From assembly GCA_041158505.1 (NCBI GenBank), contig JBEBBG010000009.1, forward strand, positions 5,157 through 69,156: a stretch of DNA of 64,000 bases. The letters are read 5' to 3'. Below the pieces are notes generated by a model that was given only the letters and a program-made list of their open reading frames with translations, did not search any database and was not told the origin of the DNA. Positions 3,462 through 52,350 of the stretch are shown here, piece by piece. Numbering within the stretch: the stretch's first letter is position 1; each line of letters begins with the position of its first letter. The position numbers were made by a program, and so were the translations under genes. The stretch is from Candidatus Parcubacteria bacterium (GTDB taxonomy: Bacteria; Patescibacteriota; Minisyncoccia; Phycocordibacterales; JAACPR01).

Positions 3462-4298
3462 ATGCAACAAGACATTCATTTGTTTAAAACAGAGGGCGCG
3501 GTCACGGTGCCGTACAGTCCAACCCTTCGAGCAGCAGTAGAAGCAATGGAGGAAAGTTGGCGTGCATTTTGTGCGCTGCCACTCGAGCAGAAGAAGCTGT
3601 TTCCCTATAGCGAAGAGAGTGCAGGTGTGGGCTATGAGTACAAAGACACACCCGGGGCAACACTCGATCTGAAGGAGAACTTCCACCTTACACTTGGGCG
3701 GTACGGGTGGCTCATGCAAGCAGCGCGTGCCACTGGACTTCCAGAGGCAGTAACGCTTGTAGAGCGGTGCCGTGATGTGGCGCTTGAGTTGCAACCTGAA
3801 GTTGAGCAGTTCGCCCGCGATGCAGAAGCTACGTGTGACATCCCCGGCTTTGCAACGGAGGTTGCTGGCAGCTCGGACATTTACTACGTTCGCCTCATTC
3901 ACTACTTTGGTGATCGAACGCCAGGGGATGAGACGGCAACTGCGCACTGTGATAAGAGTGGATTCACTTTTCACCTCTACGAAGACACACCAGGCCTTGA
4001 GCGTCTGACGTATGATGGTGCATGGGTCCCAATGCACGTGTCGCCCGGAGAAACACAGGTAATTCCAAACATGCAGCTGCAGTATCGAACTGGTGGTGCA
4101 ATCAAAGCAACGTGTCATCGTGTGGTGGCTACCGAGGCTTCAGCCAAAACTGGACGCTACGCAGCCGTCTGCTTCGTGATGCTCAAAGATACGCCACGCT
4201 ACAACAAACGTGCTGCAGGCCGTCTCCAGGAACGTGAGCCAGGTTTCAACTACACCTGTCCACCAGAGGAGTTTGCAAAGCTGTTTGCTACGGAGTAG
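3462..4298 (+). CDS. 2OG-Fe(II) oxygenase superfamily protein
   Basis: HxD...H facial triad plus RxS-like motif: ATAHCDKSGFTFH ... CHRVVA ... RYAAVCF. The ORF is open from 3360, but the first ATG with a plausible N-terminus (MQQDIHLF) is at 3462. Confidence 0.6.
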   Translation: MQQDIHLFKTEGAVTVPYSPTLRAAVEAMEESWRAFCALPLEQKKLFPYSEESAGVGYEYKDTPGATLDLKENFHLTLGRYGWLMQAARATGLPEAVTLVERCRDVALELQPEVEQFARDAEATCDIPGFATEVAGSSDIYYVRLIHYFGDRTPGDETATAHCDKSGFTFHLYEDTPGLERLTYDGAWVPMHVSPGETQVIPNMQLQYRTGGAIKATCHRVVATEASAKTGRYAAVCFVMLKDTPRYNKRAAGRLQEREPGFNYTCPPEEFAKLFATE

Positions 4299-4403
4299 TT
4301 GTATGCAACGGCTTGCCGCAAGTCAGTCTAGCCAAAATCTCGGACGTGTCCGAGATTTTTCTTTATTGCACCGCCACACAACCTGTGCTTTCATACTTCC
4401 ATT

Positions 4404-5321
4404 ATGAGTCACACCGTCCTCTTGTACTATAAGTACGTACTAATCGATAACCCTGAACAGTTCCGGGACGAGCAGCGTGCGCTTTGCGAAAAACTTGGCC
4501 TCAAGGGGCGAATTATCGTTGCGCACGAAGGTCTAAACGGAACAGTTGAGGGAACAACAGAAAATACTGCTGCGTATGAAGCCGCTATGCACGCTGACCC
4601 GCGTTTTGCTGACATGGTCTTCAAAAAGAGTGCGGGTACTGGGCAGGCATTCCCACGTCTTTCGGTAAAGGTTCGAAAAGAGATTGTGACGGCCAGTCTG
4701 GCCGAGCAAGATATTAATCCTGCTGAGTTTACTGCTCCGCACCTTGATCCAACAGAGCTCGATACGTGGTATGAAGCAGACAAAGATTTTGTTGTTGTTG
4801 ATATGCGCAACGATTACGAGTTTGAAGTTGGCCACTTTGAAAAATCAGTGATGCCTGGGCTTCGATCATTTCGTGAGTTACCAGAGCGGCTCAATGAACT
4901 TGAGCAGTACAAAGATAAAACCGTTGTGACGGTCTGTACTGGCGGCGTACGCTGTGAAAAGGCGAGTGGCTACTTGCTGAAGCAGGGGTTTACCGATGTG
5001 TACCAACTGGATGGTGGTATGGCAACCTACATGGACCGGCACCCAGGAAAGCATTTCCGTGGAAAGCTCTACGTGTTTGATAACCGAATTGTTGTTGGCG
5101 ATGGTAGTGAGCGCGATGATGTAGTCGGCAAATGTAAAAACTGTGAGACCGCATGCGAGGAGTATGCAAACTGTGGCAATGAGGATTGTCACCTACACTT
5201 TATCTGCTGCGATGCGTGCATTCGTGATGATGGTAAAGCATTCTGCTCAGCGCAGTGCGAAGCGACCGGGCGCATCGTACCGGGTACCAAAGCCCGTCGT
5301 GAGGCGCAGGGAGTCGTGTAA
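4404..5321 (+). CDS. trhO: rhodanese-domain tRNA uridine(34) hydroxylase TrhO/YceA family (UPF0176)
   Basis: LLYYKYVLIDNPEQFRDE...IIVAHEGLNGTVEG and the rhodanese active-site loop CTGGVRCEKASGYLLKQGF match E. coli YceA closely. Cys-rich C-terminus. Confidence 0.75.
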   Translation: MSHTVLLYYKYVLIDNPEQFRDEQRALCEKLGLKGRIIVAHEGLNGTVEGTTENTAAYEAAMHADPRFADMVFKKSAGTGQAFPRLSVKVRKEIVTASLAEQDINPAEFTAPHLDPTELDTWYEADKDFVVVDMRNDYEFEVGHFEKSVMPGLRSFRELPERLNELEQYKDKTVVTVCTGGVRCEKASGYLLKQGFTDVYQLDGGMATYMDRHPGKHFRGKLYVFDNRIVVGDGSERDDVVGKCKNCETACEEYANCGNEDCHLHFICCDACIRDDGKAFCSAQCEATGRIVPGTKARREAQGVV

Positions 5322-5357
5322 TTTCGAATAACGGTCATCCGTGCTACCATACACACC

Positions 5358-5960
5358 ATGTTTGATTGGGCGCTTGGGGTGATGGAAGCGAGTGGGTACC
5401 TGGGGATTTTTGGTCTCATGGTGCTTGAGAATGTCTTTCCACCGATCCCTTCAGAAATAATTATCCCTGTTGCTGGCTATGCCGCTGCAAACGGTACATT
5501 CAGTATTATTTGGGTAATTCTGATTGCGGCGCTTGGTGCAACGGTTGGCGCAACCGTGTGGTACATCATTGGCCGAATGTTCGGTGTTGAACGCCTGCGT
5601 TCACTTTCCGGTCGTTACGGTAGATTGCTAACGCTTGCCCCAGAGGATATTGATGCCGCGGAGCAATGGTTTACCCGTCATGGCCGTAAAGCGGTTCTAA
5701 TTGGTCGAATTATTCCAACAATCCGCACTCTCATTTCAATTCCTGCAGGCATTGCACGAATGCCCGTTCTCGAATTTCTTTTCTTTACGTTCGTGGGCAG
5801 TCTTGTGTGGAGTGCTGCGCTCGCTATTGTTGGATATGTATTGCAACAAAATGCAGCAGCTGCGACCCACTGGTTAAACCCGCTCTCCGATGCAATTGTA
5901 TTGCTCATTGTGTTTGTCTACATCTATCGAGTGCTTACCTTCAAGAAGCGTGTTGCGTAG
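5358..5960 (+). CDS. DedA/SNARE-associated family membrane protein
   Basis: Multi-TM protein with the DedA signature region VFPPIPSEIIIPVAGYAAANG and a GRIIPTIRTLISIPAG re-entrant motif. Confidence 0.75.
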   Translation: MFDWALGVMEASGYLGIFGLMVLENVFPPIPSEIIIPVAGYAAANGTFSIIWVILIAALGATVGATVWYIIGRMFGVERLRSLSGRYGRLLTLAPEDIDAAEQWFTRHGRKAVLIGRIIPTIRTLISIPAGIARMPVLEFLFFTFVGSLVWSAALAIVGYVLQQNAAAATHWLNPLSDAIVLLIVFVYIYRVLTFKKRVA

Positions 5961-6017
5961 TGCATCCACATGTTTGAGTCTCTATTTATCGCGGCTGCGG
6001 TATACTAAAGGTACGCA

Positions 6018-6989
6018 ATGCGACGAACAGTGGCAGATACTATTGGAAAAACAGTAAAGTGGCTGATTCCAGCTGCAATTGTGTTTGCGCTTGTCTATGC
6101 TGTAAGCGAGAGTCGCGAACCAGCACTTGTTGTCACTGAGCAGGTTGCAAGTGAGGATGTGGTACTCGAAGATCTCTATGAGCGTGGATACTTTGCAAAC
6201 GCGCTGTCATATAACATTGTTCGAATCGCCGTGACGCTCGGTTTTGATATGGAACCAGGAGCGTATTCACTCACTAAGGGTATGGGGGCTTTTTCATTTC
6301 TCTCTGCGGTATCTGCGCCCGAGTACGTGTACATCACTGTACAGGAAGGGTTGCGGCGAGAGCAGGTTGCAAAGATTGTTGGAGACAAGCTTGATTGGTC
6401 GCAAGCAGAACGTGAGCGTTTCATGAATGATTTGCCGCTGTGCGCATTTACTGGTGGTGAAGGATACTTTTTCCCAGGAGTGTACTTAGTACACAAGAAT
6501 GAGACACCTGAGATGGTTCGGGAACGAATGTTGCAACGCCTTAAGGAATCATTCGAGGAACTTGCAGGTGAACAGACGACGCGCGTTCTTAATTTGCATC
6601 AAATTCTTACGATTGCCTCACTGATTCAGCGAGAAGCAGCAGGCAAAGGTGACATGCGTTTAATTTCTGGAGTAATTTGGAACCGCCTGTTTCAAGAAAT
6701 GCCACTGCAAATTGATGCTACGTTGCAGTACGTAAAAGCAGAAGACGCCGAGAAGTGGTGGCCGCAAGTGCGTTCTGATGATAAGTATCTCGAATCTCCG
6801 TACAATACGTATCAAAATAAAGGCTTACCACCAGGACCGATTGCTAACCCAGGCCTAGCTGCTATCGAGGCCGCACTTAATCCACTCGATACAAAGTGTC
6901 TTTTTTACATTCATGATAATTCACGCAACATCCACTGTGCCTCAACCTACGAAGCGCACAAACGAAATATTAGCTACTATCTAAAGTAG
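6018..6989 (+). CDS. mltG: endolytic murein transglycosylase MltG/YceG family (paralog 1)
   Basis: N-terminal TM. YceG motifs LASLIQREA, MPLQIDATLQY, SPYNTYQNKGLPPGPIANPG, FYIHDNSRNIHCASTYEAHKRN. Confidence 0.8.
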   Translation: MRRTVADTIGKTVKWLIPAAIVFALVYAVSESREPALVVTEQVASEDVVLEDLYERGYFANALSYNIVRIAVTLGFDMEPGAYSLTKGMGAFSFLSAVSAPEYVYITVQEGLRREQVAKIVGDKLDWSQAERERFMNDLPLCAFTGGEGYFFPGVYLVHKNETPEMVRERMLQRLKESFEELAGEQTTRVLNLHQILTIASLIQREAAGKGDMRLISGVIWNRLFQEMPLQIDATLQYVKAEDAEKWWPQVRSDDKYLESPYNTYQNKGLPPGPIANPGLAAIEAALNPLDTKCLFYIHDNSRNIHCASTYEAHKRNISYYLK

Positions 6990-44928: not shown

Positions 44929-46005
44929 ATGGAAATCCTCGATATCATCAAAGTCATTGTCCCAACCACGCTCTCGTTCTTTGTTGGTATCGCGATTACA
45001 CCAACCATCACCAACTTTCTCTACAAACATGAAATGTGGAAGAAAAAAGCAGGGAAGGTGGCAGTGACCGGTGAGGCAACACCAATCTACGACAAGCTCT
45101 ACGAGAAGCGCGACGTCGGCACGCCACGTATGGGTGGCACGGTGATTTGGCTCTCGGTGTTTATCGTTGGCGCACTCATCTGGACACTCTCTCGCTTTAC
45201 CGACACTGGCCTCTTCGACAAAATCGAGTTCGTCAGCCGTAACCAAACCTGGATTCCATTCTGGGCGCTGCTCATTGGCGCGCTCGTTGGACTGCTCGAT
45301 GACTGGCTCGAGATCAAAGGCTCACGCAACCACGTTGCAGGAGGGCTGTCGCTCAAGCTCCGGCTCTGCATCGTGGCGATGATTGGTATTTTTGTAGGAC
45401 TCTGGTTCTTTACCAAGCTCGACGTAGTGGCAATCGGCGTACCGTTTCTGGGCATGATTACGGTTGGGTGGCTGATTGTGCCGTTTTACGTGGTTATTAT
45501 GCTTGCAGTCTATGCAGGTGGAGTGATTGATGGCCTCGACGGCCTCTCTGGTGGCGTATTTGCGTCTATTTTTGCCGCGTACGGCATCTACGCCTTTTCA
45601 CTCGGACAGCTCGACCTAGCGGCATTTTGCGGCTTGCTCGTTGGTAGTATTTTGGCCTTCCTTTGGTTCAACATTCCACCAGCACGCTTCTACATGTCTG
45701 AGACCGGCTCAATGGCGCTCACCATCACCGTTTCAATTCTAGCCTTTATGACCGACAGCTTGGCAGGCGGCATGGGTATCGGCATCTTGCCAATCGTGGC
45801 AATTCTCCTCTTTGCAACGGCTGCATCGAGCTTGCTCCAAGTCCTCTCAAAGAAGCTCCGGGGAGGGAAGAAGATTTTCCTCGCGGCACCGCTCCACCAC
45901 CACTTCGAAGCAATCGGCTGGTCCCAGTACAAGATTGTCATGCGCTACTGGGTCCTCGCAGTCATCTTTGCCGCACTGGGGCTGTTGGTGGCATTTGTGG
46001 GGTAG
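44929..46005 (+). CDS. mraY: phospho-N-acetylmuramoyl-pentapeptide transferase MraY
   Basis: Ten TM helices. GTPRMGG, LLDDWLEIKG (DDxxD), VIDGLDGLSGG, and the C-terminal HHHFE motif. Confidence 0.85.
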   Translation: MEILDIIKVIVPTTLSFFVGIAITPTITNFLYKHEMWKKKAGKVAVTGEATPIYDKLYEKRDVGTPRMGGTVIWLSVFIVGALIWTLSRFTDTGLFDKIEFVSRNQTWIPFWALLIGALVGLLDDWLEIKGSRNHVAGGLSLKLRLCIVAMIGIFVGLWFFTKLDVVAIGVPFLGMITVGWLIVPFYVVIMLAVYAGGVIDGLDGLSGGVFASIFAAYGIYAFSLGQLDLAAFCGLLVGSILAFLWFNIPPARFYMSETGSMALTITVSILAFMTDSLAGGMGIGILPIVAILLFATAASSLLQVLSKKLRGGKKIFLAAPLHHHFEAIGWSQYKIVMRYWVLAVIFAALGLLVAFVG

Positions 46006-46016
46006 AAACAAAGTAA

Positions 46017-46568
46017 ATGACTCAATACAAAATAAATAGCGGCGCGCAAAATAAAAATACAATCTCTATAGCAGAGTTGAAAGAACAAATTAAACAAGAA
46101 GCTTTTCGTCATTTAAAACACATTAAAGACAGTAGGAGTCATGCAGCTTTTAATCTAGCTTTCTTAAAGGCGACTATTTACATCGAAGAAATTCTAAAAG
46201 ATGTAAATTTTCATTTTGATAAGAATTTAAAAGACAAACCTCTAGGTAATCAAATTAACGCAATTAAAAAATATATTAATCTTGAACAAGAAACGGAGGA
46301 AGATCAAAAAATATACGAATCTGCTTTTGAAAAATTAGATTTTATTAATGAGATTCGGAAAAAGATTGCACATGATTTAGAATATAACTTAATTAATGAT
46401 AAAAATGCCTTAAATTCTATGCGGATAACAATCTTAGACTCAGAAGAAGAAAAAGCCAAAAAAGTTGCCTTATACTTTAAAGGTATTATTTTTCCTTTTC
46501 TTCACTTTAAATTAGGAATTAAGAACTTTGATAATTTCTTAATTCCCCTAGAACATGAATCCAATTAA
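46017..46568 (+). CDS. hypothetical protein; first gene of an AT-rich accessory operon
   Basis: 183 aa, Lys/Asn/Ile-rich, no motif. Starts 11 nt after the mraY stop. Overlaps the next gene by 14 nt. Confidence 0.45.
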   Translation: MTQYKINSGAQNKNTISIAELKEQIKQEAFRHLKHIKDSRSHAAFNLAFLKATIYIEEILKDVNFHFDKNLKDKPLGNQINAIKKYINLEQETEEDQKIYESAFEKLDFINEIRKKIAHDLEYNLINDKNALNSMRITILDSEEEKAKKVALYFKGIIFPFLHFKLGIKNFDNFLIPLEHESN

Positions 46569-46902
46569 ACGCCTCACAAAAGAAATAATTGCGTTTCGAA
46601 ACCGACGGAAGTGGAAACAATTCCATAATCCAAAAGACGTCGCACTTTCTTTAGTACTTGAGGCGACAGAGGTTATGGAACATTTTCAATGGAAAAGTCC
46701 TGAGGAAATGAAAACATACGTTAAGAAGAATAAAACAGCAATTAGCGAAGAACTTGCTGATGTTTTGTACTGGGTACTGCTGCTATCACACGATCTCAAT
46801 ATTGATATCGAGAAAGCACTAGACAATAAAATAAAAATCAATAACGAAAAATATCCTGTATCAAAAGCAAAGGGGAGTCATGCAAAGTACACAGAACTAT
46901 AG
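46555..46902 (+). CDS. MazG-like nucleoside triphosphate pyrophosphohydrolase (all-alpha NTP-PPase)
   Basis: LVLEATEVMEHF...EELADVLYWVLLLSHDLNIDIEKALDNKIKINNEKYP matches the MazG/DCTPP1-type EExxE...EELGDxL metal-binding pattern. 115 aa. Confidence 0.65.
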   Translation: MNPIKRLTKEIIAFRNRRKWKQFHNPKDVALSLVLEATEVMEHFQWKSPEEMKTYVKKNKTAISEELADVLYWVLLLSHDLNIDIEKALDNKIKINNEKYPVSKAKGSHAKYTEL

Positions 46903-48466
46903 TATGTCTGAGATTAAAACATTTAAATTTGATAGCAAAAATTTCGATGAAATTCGGGCGTACAAATTTGGTACAAATTGGCCCGTGGTTTACCTCATTG
47001 AGGATGGAAAAGAAATCTATGTAGGAGAGACCGTAAATGCATACCAGCGGAGTAAGCAGCACTTAGAAAACGCCGCTCGTGCGCGTCTTAAACGCATTCA
47101 CATTATCGGTGACGAAGAGTACAACAAATCAGCAACTCTCGATACAGAATCGTGGCTTATTCAGTACATGTCTGCTGAAGAAAAGTTTGTACTTCAAAAT
47201 GGAAACCGGGGCCTCAAAAATCACAGCTACTTTGATCGTGAAAAATATAGAGCAAAATTCGAACGAACATGGCAAAAGTTAAAAGAGATGGCCATCGTCC
47301 AAAAAGATTTAGTGCAGATTCGCAACAGCGACATTTTTAAATATTCTCCATATAAAGCACTGACGCAAGATCAAATGCTTGTTGTGCGAAAAATTGTAAA
47401 GCACCTTATTTTACAAAAAGAGCACACGTTTATCATTAATGGAAAGCCAGGAACAGGGAAAACAATCCTTGCTGTCTATCTCATAAAATACCTAAAAGAA
47501 CGAGAGGAAACAAAGCATTTAAATGTTGCCCTTGTGGTACCCATGACCTCACTTCGAAAAACAATTCAGAAGGTTTTCCGAAAAGTTTCTGGGCTCAGTT
47601 CTAGTATGGTAATTGGTCCAAACGACGTCACCAGCAAACAGTACGATTTACTTATTGTTGATGAGGCGCACCGATTGCGCAGGCGTGTGAATATCACAAA
47701 TTTTCGTTCGTTTGATACAACTAATAAAAAACTTGGTTTTACAAATGAAGGTACTGAGCTTGATTGGGTTTTGCGCTCGGCAAAAAATCACATTTTATTT
47801 TACGACAAAAACCAGAGCGTTCGCCCCTCAGACATACCCCATGCCCGTTTCGACGCATTAGAAGCAACTCACTTTGAACTAGAGAGTCAGTTGCGAGTAG
47901 AAGGCGGGGAAGAGTATGTAACTTTCATTGATAATCTTTTTGACACAGCTGTACAAAACAAAATAGCTATCAAAAACTATGATTTTAAGTTGTATACGAA
48001 CATTGTTCAGATGGTTGAGGATATAAAGCAAAAAGATAAGGAGTTTGGTTTGTCTCGAATGGTTGCCGGTTATGCGTGGAACTGGAACACAAAACGCGGC
48101 GGAGAATATGACATTGATATCGACGGACTAAAACTTACGTGGAATAGTAGCGCAAGCGACTGGGTAAATTCACCGAATGCACTGAATGAAGTTGGTTGTA
48201 TTCACACAGTGCAAGGATACGATCTTAACTATACCGGCGTAATTATTGGACCAGAAATTTTTTACAATAAAGAAATTAGAAAGATTTGCGTAAGTCCGCA
48301 AAAATATAAGGACATCAACGGCAAGCGCTCAGTCTCTGATCCCGAAGAATTAACTCGATACGTCATCAATATTTATAAAACATTAATGACTCGGGGTATT
48401 AAAGGGACGTACGTATACATTGTGGACCGAGATTTACGAGAATATATAGAATCTCAGCTTGTCTAG
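46880..48466 (+). CDS. GIY-YIG nuclease domain fused to a DUF2075-type P-loop (SF1 helicase-like) ATPase
   Basis: GIY-YIG: VVYLIEDGKEIYVGETVNAYQRSKQHLEN. Walker A INGKPGTGKTILAVYL. Walker B/DEAH LLIVDEAHRL. C-terminal GYAWNWNTK...IHTVQGYDLNYTGVIIG, typical of DUF2075. Overlaps the upstream gene by 23 nt. Confidence 0.7.
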   Translation: MQSTQNYSMSEIKTFKFDSKNFDEIRAYKFGTNWPVVYLIEDGKEIYVGETVNAYQRSKQHLENAARARLKRIHIIGDEEYNKSATLDTESWLIQYMSAEEKFVLQNGNRGLKNHSYFDREKYRAKFERTWQKLKEMAIVQKDLVQIRNSDIFKYSPYKALTQDQMLVVRKIVKHLILQKEHTFIINGKPGTGKTILAVYLIKYLKEREETKHLNVALVVPMTSLRKTIQKVFRKVSGLSSSMVIGPNDVTSKQYDLLIVDEAHRLRRRVNITNFRSFDTTNKKLGFTNEGTELDWVLRSAKNHILFYDKNQSVRPSDIPHARFDALEATHFELESQLRVEGGEEYVTFIDNLFDTAVQNKIAIKNYDFKLYTNIVQMVEDIKQKDKEFGLSRMVAGYAWNWNTKRGGEYDIDIDGLKLTWNSSASDWVNSPNALNEVGCIHTVQGYDLNYTGVIIGPEIFYNKEIRKICVSPQKYKDINGKRSVSDPEELTRYVINIYKTLMTRGIKGTYVYIVDRDLREYIESQLV

Positions 48467-48505
48467 TACTGTTTTTAATTTTAGTTCTACAAAAATATTT
48501 ATTTA

Positions 48506-48533
48506 TTGAAATTTCACATAAATGTGGTATAGT
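48506..48533 (+). promoter_or_regulatory. putative sigma70-type promoter, TTGAAA-16-TATAGT
   Basis: Read directly, 10 nt upstream of the HicB-like ORF start. Confidence 0.3.
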
Positions 48534-48542
48534 GCTTGTACT

Positions 48543-48815
48543 ATGAATGAGCAAGATGTACGGGCCGCGTTGAAAGCCTTTTTGGGCGACAAAATTCTTA
48601 CGTTTACCGTTGAGGACCACCCGAACGGTGAATGGTCTGCAATCTGTAATGAAATTCCAGCAATTATTACAGGAGGAGATGCCCAAGATCGTAATGAAAA
48701 AGAGGCGCTTATGCGTGATGCTATTTTTACAGCAGCGGGTATCCCAAAAGCATTTTGTAATGACGCGCTCTTGCGCGATGCGTCACTCCAGGTTGCAGCG
48801 TATGCAGTTTCATAA
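48543..48815 (+). CDS. hicB: HicB-like antitoxin (UPF0150 fold)
   Basis: ...ILTFTVEDHPNGEWSAICNEIPAIITGGDAQDRNEKEALMRDAIF... matches the HicB/UPF0150 pattern (E.DGGY.A..PELPG..TQGDT.EEAL.N.REAI). Confidence 0.55.
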   Translation: MNEQDVRAALKAFLGDKILTFTVEDHPNGEWSAICNEIPAIITGGDAQDRNEKEALMRDAIFTAAGIPKAFCNDALLRDASLQVAAYAVS

Positions 48816-49143
48816 TCGCCACTCACATCAAGCAATCACACTTGAATACGGCGGTTTAGTTGATAGATTAAAAAATACTAAGCAAAAAGACTGGATTAAA
48901 GCATGCCGTTCTCTCGGCTTGGTTGTGCAGGAAGACAGAGGAAAAGGAAGCCACTGTCGAGTTGTCCGAAGTGAAGATTGCAATCCATCGGAACCAGATT
49001 GTTTAGTGATGACTATTCCCAGAACACAGCTCTCGGCAAACCAACGAGCGCACGTTAAGCAATTAGTAGCATTCGGTCTTGCATATGATCGATACACCGA
49101 AAAAGATGTCTGGGAAGCATTGGGAATTAAGATTAAGCACTAA
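48802..49143 (+). CDS. hicA: HicA-like mRNA interferase toxin (YcfA family)
   Basis: ...DWIKACRSLGLVVQEDRGKGSHCRVVRS...LVMTIPRTQLSANQRAHVKQLV... resembles HicA (..L...GF......GSH......T.P.H). Overlaps the HicB stop by 14 nt. The true start is uncertain. Confidence 0.5.
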   Translation: MQFHNRHSHQAITLEYGGLVDRLKNTKQKDWIKACRSLGLVVQEDRGKGSHCRVVRSEDCNPSEPDCLVMTIPRTQLSANQRAHVKQLVAFGLAYDRYTEKDVWEALGIKIKH

Positions 49144-49183
49144 CTACGCATGTTCAGCAGCCAAATGCTATACTTACCCCAAC

Positions 49184-50005
49184 ATGCATAAACACATCAC
49201 CCACACAGCGTTACTCCTCGCTCTATTATGTACCAGCATCAGCGCACAACCAGCACACGCCGCAACAGAGGCACCACTTCCTGAAGTTGTGGCAAATGCA
49301 ACGTTTGCCATTGTAGATGGGCGAGATTTAAGGCCGCTACCAACCAACACTGTTTTCTATAAAAACGATAGCATCAATGTGTCGCTCGATTTGGTGACAC
49401 CACACGAGAAGGTTCAGGTGGAATACTTTTTGGTAAACGCAAAGGGTAACAAGAAGGTGAAGCTCAATCCAAAACCAAAAAAGATAACACTCGAAGAAAA
49501 TTCACAGGGATGGGGTATCGGCCAAATCGTTACTCAGGAACCAGGGACGTACTACTTTTTGGTAGACATGAAAGTAGGAAAGAAAACCTACAAGCTTAAA
49601 ACGCAGCCGTTTGTGGTGAAAGCGACAACGGCAGCCGCAGCTGACGCAGCAATTCCTGAAGACCTTAGCATCGCCCTTATACCGTTGGAATTCTCGCAGA
49701 CATCCGCAGATCGTGAGTACCGCCTTAGCTTTACTGCACCAGCAAGTCGGCGAACAAACGACCTGACTGGCGCACTCCATGTGACCTGCTCACAAAAAAT
49801 TACCCTATACGAAAAGGGAGGTAGCACGACGTGTGACAAGAAAAAGCGAATGGTCTATGCATCGCTCAATAACTTAGATGCGAACTTTCTCGTCGATGCC
49901 GATGACCTGCAAAAGCCAGTAGAAATCAAAGCTGAGTTTATCCTCAAGAATGCAAAGAATAAAACAGTCGCGAAGCTCAAAGACTCACTCTACGCGGCTT
50001 TGTAG
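49184..50005 (+). CDS. hypothetical secreted protein
   Basis: Signal peptide MHKHITHTALLLALLCTSISAQPAHA. Lys-rich beta-strand-like repeats. Confidence 0.45.
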   Translation: MHKHITHTALLLALLCTSISAQPAHAATEAPLPEVVANATFAIVDGRDLRPLPTNTVFYKNDSINVSLDLVTPHEKVQVEYFLVNAKGNKKVKLNPKPKKITLEENSQGWGIGQIVTQEPGTYYFLVDMKVGKKTYKLKTQPFVVKATTAAAADAAIPEDLSIALIPLEFSQTSADREYRLSFTAPASRRTNDLTGALHVTCSQKITLYEKGGSTTCDKKKRMVYASLNNLDANFLVDADDLQKPVEIKAEFILKNAKNKTVAKLKDSLYAAL

Positions 50006-50088
50006 GCGACCCAAGCACCACGGTTCGGTAAGTCGGCATAATTGACACCACTCCCACGACCCGTACTATAGACGCAAATAGAAAGGAT

Positions 50089-50108
50089 GGGGCATAAAGC
50101 CCTTTTTG
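50089..50108 (+). terminator. short hairpin GGGGC-ATAAA-GCCC followed by TTTTTG
   Basis: Read directly downstream of 49184-50005. Confidence 0.35.
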
Positions 50109-50109
50109 A

Positions 50110-50667
50110 TTGACAGTTATGGAAAAGCTCATTGTTATGGCGTTGTTTGCGCGTGGCGGTTTTTCGGAGCAGTTGGTCACCCAATTTGGTCAGATTATTT
50201 TCTCATGGAACATCTCGCGTTCCAGAAGGAAGGAAGTGTTTCTCACCGGCGAAGTCGTCGGAGGAGACTACATGACCAATGCGCGTGATCGTGGTCCGGA
50301 GCTGCTGCCGATGGCAAAGTTTGAAGCTGACATTCCACGCGCCTGCATGCAAGGACCGGAAGCGTTCACCAAGAGCGTGACGCATCTGATGACCGCACAC
50401 CTCGCCTGTGCACGGTTTAGCGCTGGAGGAACAGTTCGGGTAGGCCCACAGCTTGGCGGAGTATCGTTTGGAGGCATTCGCCCTGTACTCGTACAAGCGA
50501 CATTTCTCGGGCAAACCATCGTCCTGATGCCGGACAAACCTGAGGAAGCCCCCGGCTCTCCCAACGAAAAACCCGCCTCCGCAGAGGCCGAGCAACCCAA
50601 CGGCGAGAGCCCAATTGACACCAACAACCCCGTTGTCCGCAATATCCTCACAGTGCCTGGCGGCTAA
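50110..50667 (+). CDS. hypothetical protein in a GC-rich segment
   Basis: 185 aa, Gly/Ala/Pro-rich. Composition differs from the flanks. No motif. Confidence 0.4.
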   Translation: MTVMEKLIVMALFARGGFSEQLVTQFGQIIFSWNISRSRRKEVFLTGEVVGGDYMTNARDRGPELLPMAKFEADIPRACMQGPEAFTKSVTHLMTAHLACARFSAGGTVRVGPQLGGVSFGGIRPVLVQATFLGQTIVLMPDKPEEAPGSPNEKPASAEAEQPNGESPIDTNNPVVRNILTVPGG

Positions 50668-50714
50668 AAGCCATTGGCGCCGCGAGGACATTTTCTTTTG
50701 ACTTTTTACTCGTT

Positions 50715-51635
50715 TTGTTGTATTGTGCTATACGAAATACAGTGCGCGGCATGGTGCCAAACACTGCAAACCTCAAACCCGTTCTCTCACCAATGAAAAT
50801 TCGTTTCACTCTCTGGGCCCTGATGGGCCTTGTCCTCCTGATTGCTCTCGTGCTGCTGAAGCGCGACCTTGCCACCGATCTGTCGGCGGGCAAACGTGCC
50901 ACAGTCGTCGCCCTCTTTGCGATGTGCACTGCGGTGTCAGCATACGGTGCGGTTCACTTTGGACTGCGCCGTGCGTACCAAAACATGCATCAGCCGTTAC
51001 CACCACAGGTAGTGATTGCGTTTCTGCTCTTCTATGCAGTGACTATCGCTGTGTTTGTGGCGGCCGTCGAAACCGGCCAGCACCAGATTCTGAAATTGCT
51101 CTTGTTGACCAACCTGAGCATGTTTGGAACGTCTGCCCTCTACTCAGGGCTTATCGTCTGGTTGCTGCGCAAGCAGCGGCTGGAAGTGCCCATGCTCACG
51201 CAACTGCGTGAGCGGTACGGCAATGTCCTCATGCTCGACAGCGAGGACATCACCAGGGCAACGTCTCGCAGCACGATGGTACACCGGAGCATTCACCCAG
51301 ACATATCGTTTCCCGCTAATTCTTTTTGGGAGAAGGAAGGGTACATCCTCAAGAACGTGCCGTGGGATACATTGGACATTCCGCGTCTAATTCTGGACTA
51401 CTGCATGTTTCTGGCCTTTACCGGCGAGACCATCCAGAAGGATGGAGCAAACAGAAACCCAGTGACGAATGCCGCAACGGAGTTCGTCACGTACAACGAC
51501 AGCACCGCCGAAGCAACCTTACACAGGCTCTGCTTCTCGACCACAAAGGATGGTTCCTGCACGATCTTCATCGTGAAGACTTGCTCTGTGGAAATCCTCG
51601 GAACGCCGGTTCGTACGTTTGTGAGCGCTCTGTGA
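50715..51635 (+). CDS. hypothetical membrane protein in a GC-rich segment (start uncertain; MKIRFTLWALMGL at 50793 is an alternative)
   Basis: About four TM helices followed by a soluble C-terminal domain. No motif. Confidence 0.45.
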   Translation: MLYCAIRNTVRGMVPNTANLKPVLSPMKIRFTLWALMGLVLLIALVLLKRDLATDLSAGKRATVVALFAMCTAVSAYGAVHFGLRRAYQNMHQPLPPQVVIAFLLFYAVTIAVFVAAVETGQHQILKLLLLTNLSMFGTSALYSGLIVWLLRKQRLEVPMLTQLRERYGNVLMLDSEDITRATSRSTMVHRSIHPDISFPANSFWEKEGYILKNVPWDTLDIPRLILDYCMFLAFTGETIQKDGANRNPVTNAATEFVTYNDSTAEATLHRLCFSTTKDGSCTIFIVKTCSVEILGTPVRTFVSAL

Positions 51636-51655
51636 ACGAACTCCGTGGCACCGAC

Positions 51656-51689
51656 AAGGTTCCACGCCCGTCCCGCCACCCAGCGGGAC
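51656..51689 (+). terminator. rho-independent terminator GTCCCGC-CACCCA-GCGGGAC + ATTTTCTTTT
   Basis: Perfect 7-bp stem followed by a T-rich tail, immediately after the 51635 stop. A similar tail GGACATTTTCTTTT recurs at 50687. Confidence 0.5.
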
Positions 51690-51711
51690 ATTTTCTTTTA
51701 TTGAATTAAAG

Positions 51712-52350
51712 CTACAGCGCACACGCACCATCTGCCCACAATCCTTGCTGTGCGGCACGAGCAGCCTCCTCGGCTCGCACAAATGCATCTTGATACTGGT
51801 AGGGCACTGCATCGTCATAGGTGTACTCGTACGCGTACCCGTGGGCGATCATCAATTCATTCAAAGAGCTACTGCTATTTTCTAAAAACACATACGCGAG
51901 CGTCCGATCATATGCGTCAGTCATGCCTTGCGATTCATCAAAAACAAGCGTGACCACGTGTCCTTCTGCACGTGCCTGCAAGTACACTGCCGCCTCCTTT
52001 CCAAAGCACTCCACGGGCTTAGTAGGGTGTACCGACTCGGGCGTATCAATGCCAATGAGCCGTACCCGCGTCTGTTCTCCTTCACGAGCCGCAATCAATG
52101 TGTCACCATCAACCACACGAAGTACGTACCACTGATCAGGCGCAAGGGGAGGAAGAGCCGCTGCGGTCGTGTCCGATGAAGCAATTTGCTCACCTGCACG
52201 TTCTTCCGCGCGCACAGCAGTATCCAACGTAGTACTAAGGAATGCTTCAAACTCAGATTCTGCACCAAGCACACTCGCAACAACACCCGCCGCAACCAAG
52301 AGTACTGCAGCGATGACGGCTTTTACTTTAGGTGATCCAGTTATACCCAT
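51712..52350 (-). CDS. secreted thermonuclease (staphylococcal nuclease/SNase-like)
   Basis: Signal/TM AVIAAVLLVAAGVVASVLG. SNase core WYVLRVVDGDTLIAAREGEQTRVRLIGIDTPE...KPVECFGKEA...YDRTLAYVF... Confidence 0.75.
   Translation of the reverse strand: MGITGSPKVKAVIAAVLLVAAGVVASVLGAESEFEAFLSTTLDTAVRAEERAGEQIASSDTTAAALPPLAPDQWYVLRVVDGDTLIAAREGEQTRVRLIGIDTPESVHPTKPVECFGKEAAVYLQARAEGHVVTLVFDESQGMTDAYDRTLAYVFLENSSSSLNELMIAHGYAYEYTYDDAVPYQYQDAFVRAEEAARAAQQGLWADGACAL

What the first reader, a model, noticed from the sequence alone, without database searches (positions are those of the whole stretch)
46017..48466. Candidate novel defence operon: hypothetical, MazG-like NTP pyrophosphatase, and GIY-YIG nuclease fused to DUF2075 ATPase
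Three genes in an AT-rich block are translationally coupled (14-nt and 23-nt overlaps). The largest combines a GIY-YIG endonuclease motif (VVYLIEDGKEIYVGET...R..H..E.N) with a DUF2075-type Walker A/B (GKPGTGKT / LLIVDEAHRL) SF1-helicase-like ATPase. This nuclease-plus-helicase layout resembles single-protein nuclease-helicase immunity proteins (Nhi-like) and DUF2075 proteins found in defence islands. Here, however, it is coupled to a MazG-type nucleotide pyrophosphohydrolase, which suggests nucleotide depletion or alarmone hydrolysis as part of the mechanism, and to a 183-aa protein with no detectable homology. I am not aware of this exact three-gene combination being described.
Basis: partly seen in the sequence, partly recalled or inferred. 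Interest (0 to 1): 0.8.

Follow-up and report, generated by a model that had tools for sequence, protein, structure and literature searches.

The report
Pyrophosphatase and nuclease-helicase gene pair
A horizontally acquired two-gene cassette (a dCTP-pyrophosphatase-like enzyme plus a nuclease-helicase of the Schlafen/Nhi type) recurs in hundreds of bacterial genomes and sits here with an unrelated small HEPN-type gene inserted in front of it. It is a plausible but unproven anti-phage module that one earlier screen nominated and did not validate.

Summary
The three ORFs, their motifs and the AT-rich block are real. The "three-gene operon" is composite.

**Conserved unit: two genes.** A 115-aa MazG-like enzyme of the DCTPP1 type sits directly upstream of a GIY-YIG + DUF2075 (SLFN-g3, SF1B-like) nuclease-helicase. 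Every assessable related locus has this pair (84 of 85; the 85th is cut off upstream). Most are Patescibacteria. The pair also occurs on Bacillus thuringiensis and Lactiplantibacillus plasmids. Its G+C is lower than its flanks in 69 of 77 loci.

**The 183-aa gene is a separate insertion.** It is absent from a sister genome at the same site, from all 85 loci, and from the MazG/DUF2075 neighbourhood in all six contexts of its own relatives. It is not homology-free: it belongs to a rare HEPN-fold family with an invariant Rx4H motif.

**The 23-nt overlap depends on the start codon.** The family-conserved start, ATG 46904, lies one base after the MazG stop.

**Prior knowledge.** Nuclease + DUF2075 proteins (Nhi, Nhi-like) are proven defence proteins. 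Millman et al. 2022 (Table S2) tested a "Pyrophosphatase" + DUF2075 candidate: one construct showed no defence and one failed to clone.

**Verdict.** This is a new variant of a known kind, of moderate interest, with function untested.

The parts
46555..46902 (+). MazG-like all-alpha NTP pyrophosphohydrolase of the DCTPP1 type (115 aa). This is the first gene of the conserved two-gene cassette. The metal-binding motifs are E36-x-x-E39 (46660-46671) and E66-x-x-D69 (46750-46761).
   Evidence: PF12643 2e-19, 70 bits against a cut-off of 27. The best solved relative is dCTP pyrophosphatase 1/RS21-C6, 4.7e-20 over residues 4-115 including the KYTEL tail. The ExxE and ELAD motifs are kept in at least 90% of 79 orthologues. 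The gene is directly upstream of the helicase gene in 84 of 85 loci.
46904..48466 (+). GIY-YIG nuclease fused to a DUF2075/SLFN-g3 SF1B-like helicase ATPase (520 aa, short form without the S24 peptidase). This is the second gene of the cassette. The mechanical ORF starts at 46880, but the family-conserved start is 46904.
   Evidence: PF09848 7e-67. More than 7,900 homologues exist, the best 120 at 60-88% identity over the full length. All aligned homologues begin MSEIK. The stop TAG of the MazG gene at 46900-46902 is followed by T and then ATG.
46976..47218 (+). GIY-YIG nuclease domain (about residues 25-105 of the 520-aa protein).
   Evidence: PF01541 1.4e-4, 22.5 bits against 22.6. It hits in 23 of 33 members. 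Y30, Y39, G41, R49, H53, E82 and N99/N101 are invariant. hhalign against small GIY-YIG proteins aligns the same motifs. PADLOC PDC-S14 8.6e-6 over residues 9-147.
47423..48427 (+). DUF2075 / Schlafen group-3 helicase domain. Walker A GKPGTGKT is at 47441-47464. It also carries Walker B DEAH and the motifs CIHTVQGYD and YKTLxTRG.
   Evidence: PF09848 covers residues 174-508 and profile positions 2-354 of 354. The motifs are invariant in alignment A1. PADLOC Nhi and AbiO give partial matches to this core only.
46017..46568 (+). ORF1, a 183-aa HEPN-fold protein with an Rx4H motif (R114-H119, 46356-46373). It is a lineage-specific insertion and not part of the conserved cassette.
46005..46549 (.). 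Indel relative to the sister genome. This 545-bp segment carries ORF1 and lies exactly between the mraY stop and the MazG start.
   Evidence: blastn of the window against L001/L002 is colinear up to 46004 and resumes at 46550 with no gap on the sister side. In the sister locus the MazG gene starts 5 nt after mraY. G+C is 27.3% here against 36-39% for the cassette.
46515..46546 (+). 14-nt inverted repeat (hairpin, 4-nt loop) at the right end of the inserted segment, just before the MazG start codon.
   Evidence: the repeat finder pair I4, 93% complementary. Its function was not tested.
48506..48533 (+). Promoter-like site (TTGAAA-16-TATAGT with an upstream TG) after the cassette. It marks the likely 3' limit of the transcription unit.
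   Evidence: This is the best site in the scan at 10 of 12 matches, but the number of sites in the region is not above the shuffle expectation.

Best explanation
**What it is.** The functional unit is a mobile two-gene cassette, not three genes. A DCTPP1-type MazG-like pyrophosphatase is translationally coupled to a nuclease-helicase made of a GIY-YIG domain plus a DUF2075/SF1B ATPase.

**How it most likely works (inferred).** It is most likely an Nhi-like nucleic-acid defence module against phages or other invading DNA. By analogy with Nhi, the helicase domain loads on or translocates along foreign replication intermediates and the GIY-YIG domain cuts them. The MazG-like partner acts on the deoxynucleotide pool by hydrolysing dCTP or, more likely, non-canonical 5-modified dCTP-type nucleotides, as DCTPP1 does. 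This would starve or 'unmask' phages that rely on modified bases, or stop modified nucleotides being re-used. In about half of the family a C-terminal LexA/UmuD-type S24 peptidase probably ties activity to RecA-ssDNA. The copy in this window lacks that domain.

**The upstream gene.** ORF1 is a separate HEPN-type putative RNase gene that inserted upstream and is probably co-transcribed. Together they form a small defence/toxin islet inside the cell-wall (dcw) gene cluster.

**Shown:** the gene pair, the domains, the conserved catalytic residues, the low G+C, the variable context and the insertion of ORF1.

**Inferred:** the defence role, the substrates, and any physical complex between the two proteins.
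For: **The pair is obligate.** MazG lies directly upstream in 84 of 85 loci, and the 85th is cut off upstream. MazG and the helicase are the only two families conserved across 82 loci.

**The pair is kept across phyla.** It is kept at 28-34% identity on B. thuringiensis and L. plantarum plasmids. It is also kept when the N-terminal domain of the helicase protein is a different one (L092). Of three close MazG homologues sampled, two are followed by a DUF2075 gene and one by a D12 methyltransferase plus an AlwI restriction enzyme.

**Catalytic residues are conserved.** They are invariant in the helicase protein and kept in at least 90% of 79 MazG orthologues.

**It looks horizontally acquired.**
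- The cassette's G+C is below its flanks in 69 of 77 loci, with a median of -5.4 points and none above +3.
- Its genomic context varies from locus to locus.

**Neighbours include defence and toxin genes.**
- Roughly one in seven of 148 immediate neighbours is a type IV restriction, Mrr, NYN, Fic/SoFic, AbiEii or PemK-type gene.
- The B. thuringiensis copy lies near a zeta toxin and an HNH nuclease.
- The L. fermentum copy lies next to a type III-A CRISPR locus.
- The Paenibacillus copy has a type IV REase-like gene in the place of MazG.

**Related proteins are proven defence factors.**
- Nuclease + DUF2075 proteins are experimentally anti-phage: Nhi (preprint 10.1101/776245) and Nhi-like (10.1101/2022.05.11.491447).
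- The Sorek-lab screen itself cloned a pyrophosphatase + DUF2075 pair as a candidate defence system.

**The MazG partner resembles DCTPP1.** DCTPP1 is the closest solved relative. It hydrolyses abnormal cytosine-derived dNTPs (PMC13510388, PMC4491611).
Against: - The only tested relative (SG192, Bacillus firmus) showed no observed defence. That construct has a pyrophosphatase 44% identical to this one and a different N-terminal domain on the helicase protein. SG193 failed to clone.
- No PADLOC model matches the full-length protein, and none matches the MazG partner.
- The proteins are unusually well conserved for defence genes: mean pairwise identity is 57% (helicase protein) and 55% (MazG) across Patescibacteria classes.
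- Most immediate neighbours are not defence genes, and I computed no matched genomic baseline.
- Co-evolution of the two proteins is only weak (Mantel r 0.21, p 0.002).
- The role proposed for MazG rests on similarity to DCTPP1 only. No substrate was tested.
Confidence: 0.5

Rival explanations
1. DNA-damage and nucleotide-pool hygiene module. The DCTPP1-like enzyme removes modified or damaged dCTP-type nucleotides from a pool that, in Patescibacteria, is thought to depend largely on salvage (my own background knowledge, not tested here). The GIY-YIG helicase excises or processes DNA that has incorporated such nucleotides. The S24 (UmuD-like) forms are switched on by RecA-ssDNA during an SOS-type response.
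For: - DCTPP1 is a pool-sanitising enzyme (PMC13510388), and the partner here is its close relative.
- About half of the family carries an S24 peptidase (PF00717, best 4.8e-25) with GDSM, a conserved Lys and a UmuD-like C-G site. Of 82 loci, 41 have the long form.
- Sequence conservation is high.
- The family is enriched in Patescibacteria.
- No defence was observed for SG192.
Against: - The cassette has lower G+C than its flanks and a different genomic context in each lineage.
- It is carried on plasmids beside toxin, restriction and CRISPR genes.
- No repair genes recur as neighbours.
- The window's copy has no S24 domain.
Confidence: 0.2
2. Selfish addiction or maintenance cassette. The nuclease-helicase is toxic and the co-translated MazG-like protein restrains it, directly or through a nucleotide. 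The pair would then persist as a toxin-antitoxin-like element of plasmids and genomic islets, with or without any benefit to the host.
For: - Gene order is strict and the two genes are joined stop-to-start, 1-10 nt apart in most loci.
- SG193 could not be cloned.
- The cassette has a horizontal-transfer signature.
- It has PemK, Fic, AbiEii and zeta-toxin neighbours.
Against: - MazG keeps all its catalytic residues, which is not expected for a mere protein inhibitor.
- SG192 was cloned.
- Relatives of the helicase protein occur without MazG on some plasmids.
- A MazG gene occurs without a DUF2075 gene in one locus.
Confidence: 0.1
3. One reading: a genuine three-component system in this genome, in which the HEPN-type ORF1 works together with MazG and the nuclease-helicase (for example an RNase arm plus a DNase arm).
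For: - ORF1 overlaps the MazG start by 14 nt and lies 11 nt after mraY, so it is probably co-transcribed.
- ORF1 has a HEPN fold and a conserved Rx4H motif.
- HEPN RNases such as HepS are defence effectors (one search lists the HepS structure).
Against: - ORF1 is found in 0 of 85 related loci.
- It is absent from the sister genome at the same site.
- Its composition differs from the cassette: 27% against 36-39% G+C.
- In six contexts of ORF1 relatives, none has MazG or DUF2075 nearby.
Confidence: 0.07

Closest known systems
Millman et al. 2022 candidate system 'Pyrophosphatase' (constructs SG192 from Bacillus firmus LK28 and SG193 from B. thuringiensis Lr3/2; Table S2 of 10.1101/2022.05.11.491447)
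   Same: It has the same two-gene layout, with a small MazG-like pyrophosphatase directly upstream of a DUF2075 protein. The SG192 pyrophosphatase is 44% identical to the window's and 64% identical to the B. thuringiensis plasmid copy. The SG192 DUF2075 protein is 54% identical to the partner of a MazG that is 80% identical to the window's (L092).
   Different: The N-terminal domain of the SG192/SG193 DUF2075 proteins is not GIY-YIG. By eye it has a D...ExK-type motif, but Pfam finds nothing. Identity to the window's protein is only about 29%, and only over the helicase core. The outcome there was 'x' (no observed defence) for SG192 and 'Cloning failed' for SG193, so the system is nominated but not validated.
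Nhi (SERP2475, Staphylococcus epidermidis; Bari et al.) and the 'Nhi-like' protein (SG141, Bacillus cereus; Millman et al.)
   Same: Both have an N-terminal nuclease plus a DUF2075/SF1B helicase in one polypeptide, and both have demonstrated anti-phage activity. The PADLOC Nhi model matches the window's helicase core at 3.6e-17.
   Different: The Nhi nuclease is PD-(D/E)XK, not GIY-YIG. Nhi works as a single gene, whereas here a MazG partner is essentially obligate. The Nhi HMM covers only residues 92-385, so the match is not full length.
DCTPP1 / RS21-C6 (mammalian all-alpha dCTP pyrophosphatase 1)
   Same: It is the best solved relative of the MazG-like protein: 4.7e-20, aligned end to end, sharing the W..FH, ExxE, FQW and EELxD motifs and the KYT(D/E)L tail.
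   Different: DCTPP1 is a eukaryotic stand-alone housekeeping enzyme of 170 aa. The bacterial protein is 115 aa and is locked to a nuclease-helicase gene. Its substrate is unknown.
Schlafen group III helicase domain (for example human SLFN11, SLFN5 and SLFN13)
   Same: They share the same Pfam family, PF09848, matched here at 7e-67 over the whole profile.
   Different: Schlafens carry an N-terminal SLFN/AlbA-type tRNA nuclease, not GIY-YIG. The recently described bacterial Schlafen defence proteins are defined by that RNase domain, which is absent here (abstracts).
HepS and other stand-alone HEPN defence or toxin RNases (for ORF1 only)

Membership tests
DUF2075 / SLFN-g3 helicase (PF09848) | Full-length match to the family HMM above the gathering score | tested here: met
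   7e-67, 226.6 bits against a cut-off of 24, profile positions 2-354 of 354. All 33 aligned homologues match.
DUF2075 / SLFN-g3 helicase (PF09848) | Intact P-loop ATPase motifs (Walker A GxxxxGKT, Walker B DExH) and SF1-type C-terminal motifs | tested here: met
   GKPGTGKT, DEAH, CIHTVQGYD and YKTLxTRG are invariant in A1. ATPase and helicase activity were not assayed.
GIY-YIG nuclease superfamily (PF01541) | HMM match above the gathering score | tested here: inconclusive
   22.4-22.5 bits against a cut-off of 22.6, E 1.4e-4, covering only the first half of the profile. 23 of 33 members hit at E<=0.01. hhalign P-value 0.006.
GIY-YIG nuclease superfamily (PF01541) | Catalytic constellation: GIY Tyr, YIG Tyr-x-Gly, Arg, His/Tyr, Glu, Asn | tested here: met
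   Y30, Y39, G41, R49, H53, E82 and N99/N101 are invariant in 33 sequences. The same motifs are present in the Bacillus and Lactobacillus homologues.
MazG-like / DCTPP1 all-alpha NTP pyrophosphatase (PF12643) | HMM match above the gathering score, and similarity to solved DCTPP1 | tested here: met
   PF12643 70 bits against 27. DCTPP1 4.7e-20 over residues 4-115.
MazG-like / DCTPP1 all-alpha NTP pyrophosphatase (PF12643) | ExxE ... ExxD metal-binding motif | tested here: met
   E36/E39 and E66/D69 are present and kept in at least 90% of 79 orthologues.
MazG-like / DCTPP1 all-alpha NTP pyrophosphatase (PF12643) | dCTP or 5-modified-dCTP pyrophosphohydrolase activity | not testable with these tools
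   This needs an enzyme assay.
Nhi (nuclease-helicase immunity) | N-terminal PD-(D/E)XK nuclease domain | tested here: not met
   The N-terminus is GIY-YIG-like. Nhi's is PD-(D/E)XK.
Nhi (nuclease-helicase immunity) | Full-length match to the PADLOC Nhi model | tested here: not met
   PDLC02372 3.6e-17, but only residues 92-385 against profile positions 113-373 of 470.
Nhi (nuclease-helicase immunity) | Acts as a single-gene system | tested here: not met
   A MazG-like gene is directly upstream in 84 of 85 loci. Whether it is functionally required was not tested.
Nhi (nuclease-helicase immunity) | Protects against phage | not testable with these tools
   The only experimental datum for a related pair is negative or uninformative: SG192 'x' and SG193 'Cloning failed'.
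HEPN superfamily (ORF1) | Rx4-6H motif | tested here: met
   R114-K-K-I-A-H119. R and H are invariant and A118 is at least 90% conserved in 10 sequences.
HEPN superfamily (ORF1) | All-alpha HEPN fold | tested here: met
HEPN superfamily (ORF1) | Significant match to a curated HEPN sequence model | tested here: not met
   No Pfam or NCBIfam hit at E<=0.1. PADLOC Csx1/Csm6 scores only 0.028. The PDB profile search hits the Csm6 HEPN region at 0.008.
LexA/UmuD S24 peptidase fusion (long form of the family) | C-terminal PF00717 domain | tested here: not met
   The window's protein ends at residue 520 with no S24 domain. 15 of 33 aligned homologues and 41 of 82 loci have it.

The most novel reading that the evidence does not exclude
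The DCTPP1-like partner is not a helper. It is the sensor or gatekeeper of a nucleotide-pool-sensing immunity. It recognises phage-made non-canonical dNTPs (hm-dCTP, hm-dUTP, dZTP-type), and its turnover or binding state licenses the attached nuclease-helicase. In the long forms, licensing would also run through RecA-triggered S24 self-cleavage. This would be a defence logic that reads the chemistry of the dNTP pool rather than nucleic acid or protein. It would also link two families (DCTPP1 and the SLFN11-type helicase) that in humans both shape responses to nucleoside analogues and replication stress.
Probability: 0.1. Interest if true: 0.85.

Novelty: new variant of a known kind. Interest (0 to 1): 0.5.

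Why it matters
If the cassette is a working defence system, it would add an obligate nucleotide-pool enzyme to the Nhi-type nuclease-helicase effectors. That would be a rare explicit link between dNTP chemistry and DNA-targeting immunity.

It would also be one of the commoner accessory modules of the little-studied Patescibacteria.

The cassette has culturable representatives on B. thuringiensis and L. plantarum plasmids, so it can be tested directly.

The earlier negative result (SG192) was for a different N-terminal variant, so the question is still open.

For annotation, the practical lesson is that the unit is two genes. The 183-aa gene is an independent HEPN-type insertion.

Tried and rejected
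- A single-sequence AF2 model of ORF1 was useless (pLDDT 38.9). It was replaced by an alignment-based model.
- The afdb50 fold library was unavailable.
- A profile of the large protein against PDB sequences gave nothing at 1e-3.
- The Millman supplements did not contain pfam12643 or pfam09848 strings, and one file was truncated when stored. I therefore could not retrieve their defence-enrichment score for this family.

**Ideas tested and rejected**
- Phage or prophage origin. No relatives were found in IMG/VR with the patterns used. GenBank phages gave only four weak matches, the best on an unverified faecal contig. The flanks are housekeeping genes.
- Housekeeping helicases. RecD, RecG, PriA and DnaC matches are far below their NCBIfam cut-offs.
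- A mobile-element signature. No flanking direct or inverted repeats of note and no adjacent tRNA.
- Promoter and terminator scans were not above the shuffle expectation.
- My by-eye idea that the two small ORFs downstream (48543-48815 and 48802-49143) are a HicB/HicA pair found no support in Pfam, NCBIfam, PADLOC or PDB.
- My by-eye reading of a PD-(D/E)XK motif in the N-terminus of the L092/SG192 variant has no Pfam support. It is left as inference.

**Literature searches that returned nothing relevant**
- DUF2075+MazG, Schlafen+MazG, DCTPP1+anti-phage, and MazG+'defense island'+helicase.


Full report
**1. What is in the sequence**

Three same-strand ORFs lie at 46017-46568 (183 aa), 46555-46902 (115 aa) and 46880-48466 (528 aa). 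They sit directly after mraY (44929-46005). A staphylococcal-nuclease-type gene, ftsW and murG lie further downstream. The host is a Candidatus Parcubacteria MAG, going by the source's name for ORF1.

The block is AT-rich: ORF1 is 27.3% G+C, the MazG gene 36.2% and the large gene 39.2%. Both flanks are about 50%.

ORF1 overlaps the MazG start by 14 nt. The reported 23-nt overlap between MazG and the large gene exists only if ATG 46880 is used. All aligned homologues and the public gene call (520 aa) begin MSEIK at ATG 46904. That start lies one base after the MazG stop at 46900-46902. The two genes are therefore joined stop-to-start and do not overlap.

**2. Domain calls**

- *115-aa protein.* It matches PF12643 MazG-like (2e-19, 70 bits, cut-off 27). 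Its closest solved relative is dCTP pyrophosphatase 1 (DCTPP1/RS21-C6), at 4.7e-20 and aligned end to end including the C-terminal KYTEL. The metal-binding ExxE and ExxD motifs (E36/E39 and E66/D69) are kept in at least 90% of 79 orthologues.
- *Large protein, helicase part.* It matches PF09848 (DUF2075, now 'Schlafen group 3 helicase') at 7e-67 over the whole profile. Walker A, DEAH and SF1-type C-terminal motifs are invariant.
- *Large protein, nuclease part.* The GIY-YIG match is marginal (22.4 bits against 22.6). It recurs in 23 of 33 family members, and the catalytic positions are invariant. I accept it as a divergent GIY-YIG domain.
- *Other models.* Housekeeping helicase models are far below their cut-offs. 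PADLOC gives only partial, helicase-core matches to Nhi (3.6e-17) and AbiO (6.8e-15), plus weak matches to candidate families PDC-S14 and PDC-S41. It gives nothing for the MazG protein.

**3. The conserved unit is two genes**

The large protein has more than 7,900 homologues in the protein collection. The best 120 are 60-88% identical over the full length. Nearly all are Patescibacteria.

I called ORFs in 85 fetched loci and searched them with the three window proteins.
- A MazG-like gene lies immediately upstream of the helicase gene in 84 loci, usually 1-10 nt away.
- The one exception is truncated 48 nt upstream of the helicase gene.
- ORF1 has no match in any locus.

All-against-all clustering of the flanking genes finds only these two families conserved. 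The next most frequent family is in 12 loci.

In the reverse direction, two of three close MazG homologues on long contigs are followed by a DUF2075 gene. The third is followed by a D12 methyltransferase and an AlwI-type restriction enzyme.

The pair survives at much greater distance.
- On B. thuringiensis plasmid pIS56-233, a 'nucleotide pyrophosphohydrolase' 51% identical to the window's precedes a GIY-YIG/DUF2075 protein that is 34% identical.
- On an L. plantarum plasmid the same order holds at 30% and 28% identity.

The pair also survives replacement of the N-terminal domain. The helicase partner of a MazG that is 80% identical to the window's has a different roughly 250-aa N-terminus (L092).

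About half of the family (41 of 82 loci, 15 of 33 aligned proteins) carries a C-terminal LexA/UmuD-type S24 peptidase. It has GDSM, a conserved Lys and a C-G site. Short and long forms cluster separately. The window's copy is the short form.

**4. ORF1 is a separate insertion and is not an orphan**

A sister genome (helicase protein 88% identical) has MazG starting 5 nt after mraY, with no ORF1. By blastn the two genomes are colinear up to 46004 and again from 46550. The window's 46005-46549 is therefore a clean 545-bp indel carrying ORF1. Its composition (27% G+C) differs from the cassette's.

The word-indexed search finds only the protein itself. Full HMMER over 1.84 billion representatives finds nine relatives at 30-39% identity. 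R114 and H119 (Rx4H) are invariant among them.

Six genomic contexts of ORF1 relatives contain no MazG or DUF2075 gene. Several sit just after the 3' end of a housekeeping gene, as here.

**5. Is it a defence cassette?**

*For.*
- The cassette's G+C is below its flanks in 69 of 77 loci, with a median of -5.4 points and none above +3.
- Its genomic context differs between lineages.
- It occurs on 110 plasmid records.
- About one in seven of 148 immediate neighbours is a type IV or Mrr restriction, NYN, Fic/SoFic, AbiEii or PemK-type gene.
- The B. thuringiensis copy lies near a zeta toxin and an HNH nuclease. An L. fermentum copy abuts a type III-A CRISPR locus. A Paenibacillus copy has a type IV REase-like gene where MazG would be.
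- Nuclease + DUF2075 proteins are proven anti-phage effectors. Nhi degrades phage replication intermediates, and there is also an 'Nhi-like' protein.

*Against.*
- Table S2 of Millman et al. 2022 lists a candidate called 'Pyrophosphatase'. SG192 (B. firmus; pyrophosphatase + DUF2075) is marked 'x' under 'observed defense', and SG193 (B. thuringiensis) is marked 'Cloning failed'.
- SG192's pyrophosphatase is 44% identical to the window's. Its DUF2075 protein belongs to the non-GIY-YIG variant: 54% identical to L092's, and 29% to the window's over the helicase core.
- The proteins are unusually conserved for defence genes (mean 57% and 55% identity).
- No matched baseline for neighbour enrichment was computed.
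- Co-evolution of the two proteins is only weakly detectable (Mantel r 0.21, p 0.002).
- No phage origin is indicated.

**6. Mechanism**

This is inference, apart from the anatomy described above. The most likely mechanism is an Nhi-like DNA-targeting module. The SF1B-type motor engages foreign replication intermediates and the GIY-YIG domain cuts them. The co-translated DCTPP1-like enzyme acts on the dNTP pool. DCTPP1 hydrolyses abnormal cytosine-derived triphosphates (PMC13510388, PMC4491611). Type IV, modification-dependent nucleases also recur nearby. I therefore favour removal of non-canonical pyrimidine dNTPs used by phages over bulk dCTP depletion, but nothing here tests this. Long forms are probably gated by RecA-stimulated S24 self-cleavage.

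Confidence is about 0.5 for 'defence cassette'. It is much lower for the specific role of MazG. Three rivals remain:
- a nucleotide-pool hygiene and DNA-repair module linked to SOS (0.2);
- a toxin-antitoxin-like addiction cassette (0.1);

**7. Novelty and verdict**

- The GIY-YIG-DUF2075 fusion has been noted before (PMC6765204).
- The nuclease-DUF2075 defence principle is known (Nhi).
- The pyrophosphatase-DUF2075 pairing was nominated and tested without success in one supplementary table.
- The main text of every paper I could search is silent on the pairing.

New here:
- the pairing is essentially obligate;
- it dominates in Patescibacteria;
- the GIY-YIG and S24 variants are untested;
- the 183-aa gene is an independent HEPN-type insertion.

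This is a new variant of a known kind. It is of moderate interest and is experimentally tractable through the Bacillus and Lactobacillus plasmid copies.

Noticed in passing
window 46005-46549; L086 1597-2100; L099 5001-5501: Genes of the rare ORF1 (HEPN-like) family tend to sit a few bases after the stop codon of a co-oriented housekeeping gene. Here it is mraY (11 nt), in L086 a class II aminoacyl-tRNA synthetase (5 nt), and in L099/L100 RNase R (13 nt). They look like small hitch-hiking cassettes that rely on read-through transcription.
   Followed up: partly
window 46515-46546: A 14-nt inverted repeat (93% complementary, 4-nt loop) lies at the right edge of the ORF1 insertion, 9 nt before the MazG start codon. 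It could be a remnant of the insertion or a structure that affects MazG translation.
   Followed up: no
window 48543-48815 and 48802-49143: Two small ORFs overlap by 14 nt directly after the cassette. They lie in the tail of the AT-rich block (41.9% G+C) and are preceded by the best promoter-like site of the region (48506-48533). By eye they recall a HicB/HicA-type pair, but Pfam, NCBIfam, PADLOC and PDB searches gave nothing.
   Followed up: partly
window 48415-52336 compared with L001/L002: The stretch between the cassette and ftsW is a variable spot. Only 49243-49857 aligns with the sister genome, at 64.5% identity, while the flanks are 81-86% identical. It holds unannotatable ORFs (a 308-aa gene at 49079-50005 and a 306-aa gene at 50715-51635) and a thermonuclease-like SNase gene on the minus strand (51712-52350).
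   Followed up: no
alignment A1 columns about 590-740 (for example P0003, P0016, P0028); 41 of 82 loci: About half of the family has a C-terminal LexA/UmuD-type S24 peptidase with GDSM, a conserved Lys and a conserved Cys-Gly (the UmuD cleavage-site type). This suggests RecA-ssDNA-triggered self-cleavage of a nuclease-helicase.
   Followed up: partly
L094 (Bacillus sp. PGP15 plasmid p1) 1-4581: A MazG-like gene is followed by two paralogous proteins with near-identical GIY-YIG N-termini. One is fused to a KAP-family P-loop NTPase (686 aa) and the other to DUF2075 (560 aa). The same nuclease head is therefore shuffled between NTPase bodies.
   Followed up: partly
L093 5001-9532: A MazG-like gene 73% identical to the window's is followed by a D12-class adenine methyltransferase and an AlwI-type restriction endonuclease, not by a DUF2075 gene.
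   Followed up: no
L090 (Paenibacillus amylolyticus plasmid) 3555-6614: A full-length GIY-YIG/DUF2075 homologue (34% identity) has no MazG gene upstream. A DUF3578-containing protein sits there instead, and it matches PADLOC's type IV methyl-directed restriction enzyme model.
   Followed up: partly
L092 5352-6101 and SG192/SG193 of Millman et al. Table S2: A second architectural variant of the MazG-partnered DUF2075 protein has a roughly 250-aa N-terminal domain with a D...E-x-K-like motif (IDFIITG...VLVELKQW). This is suggestive of a PD-(D/E)XK nuclease, but Pfam gives no match.
   Followed up: partly
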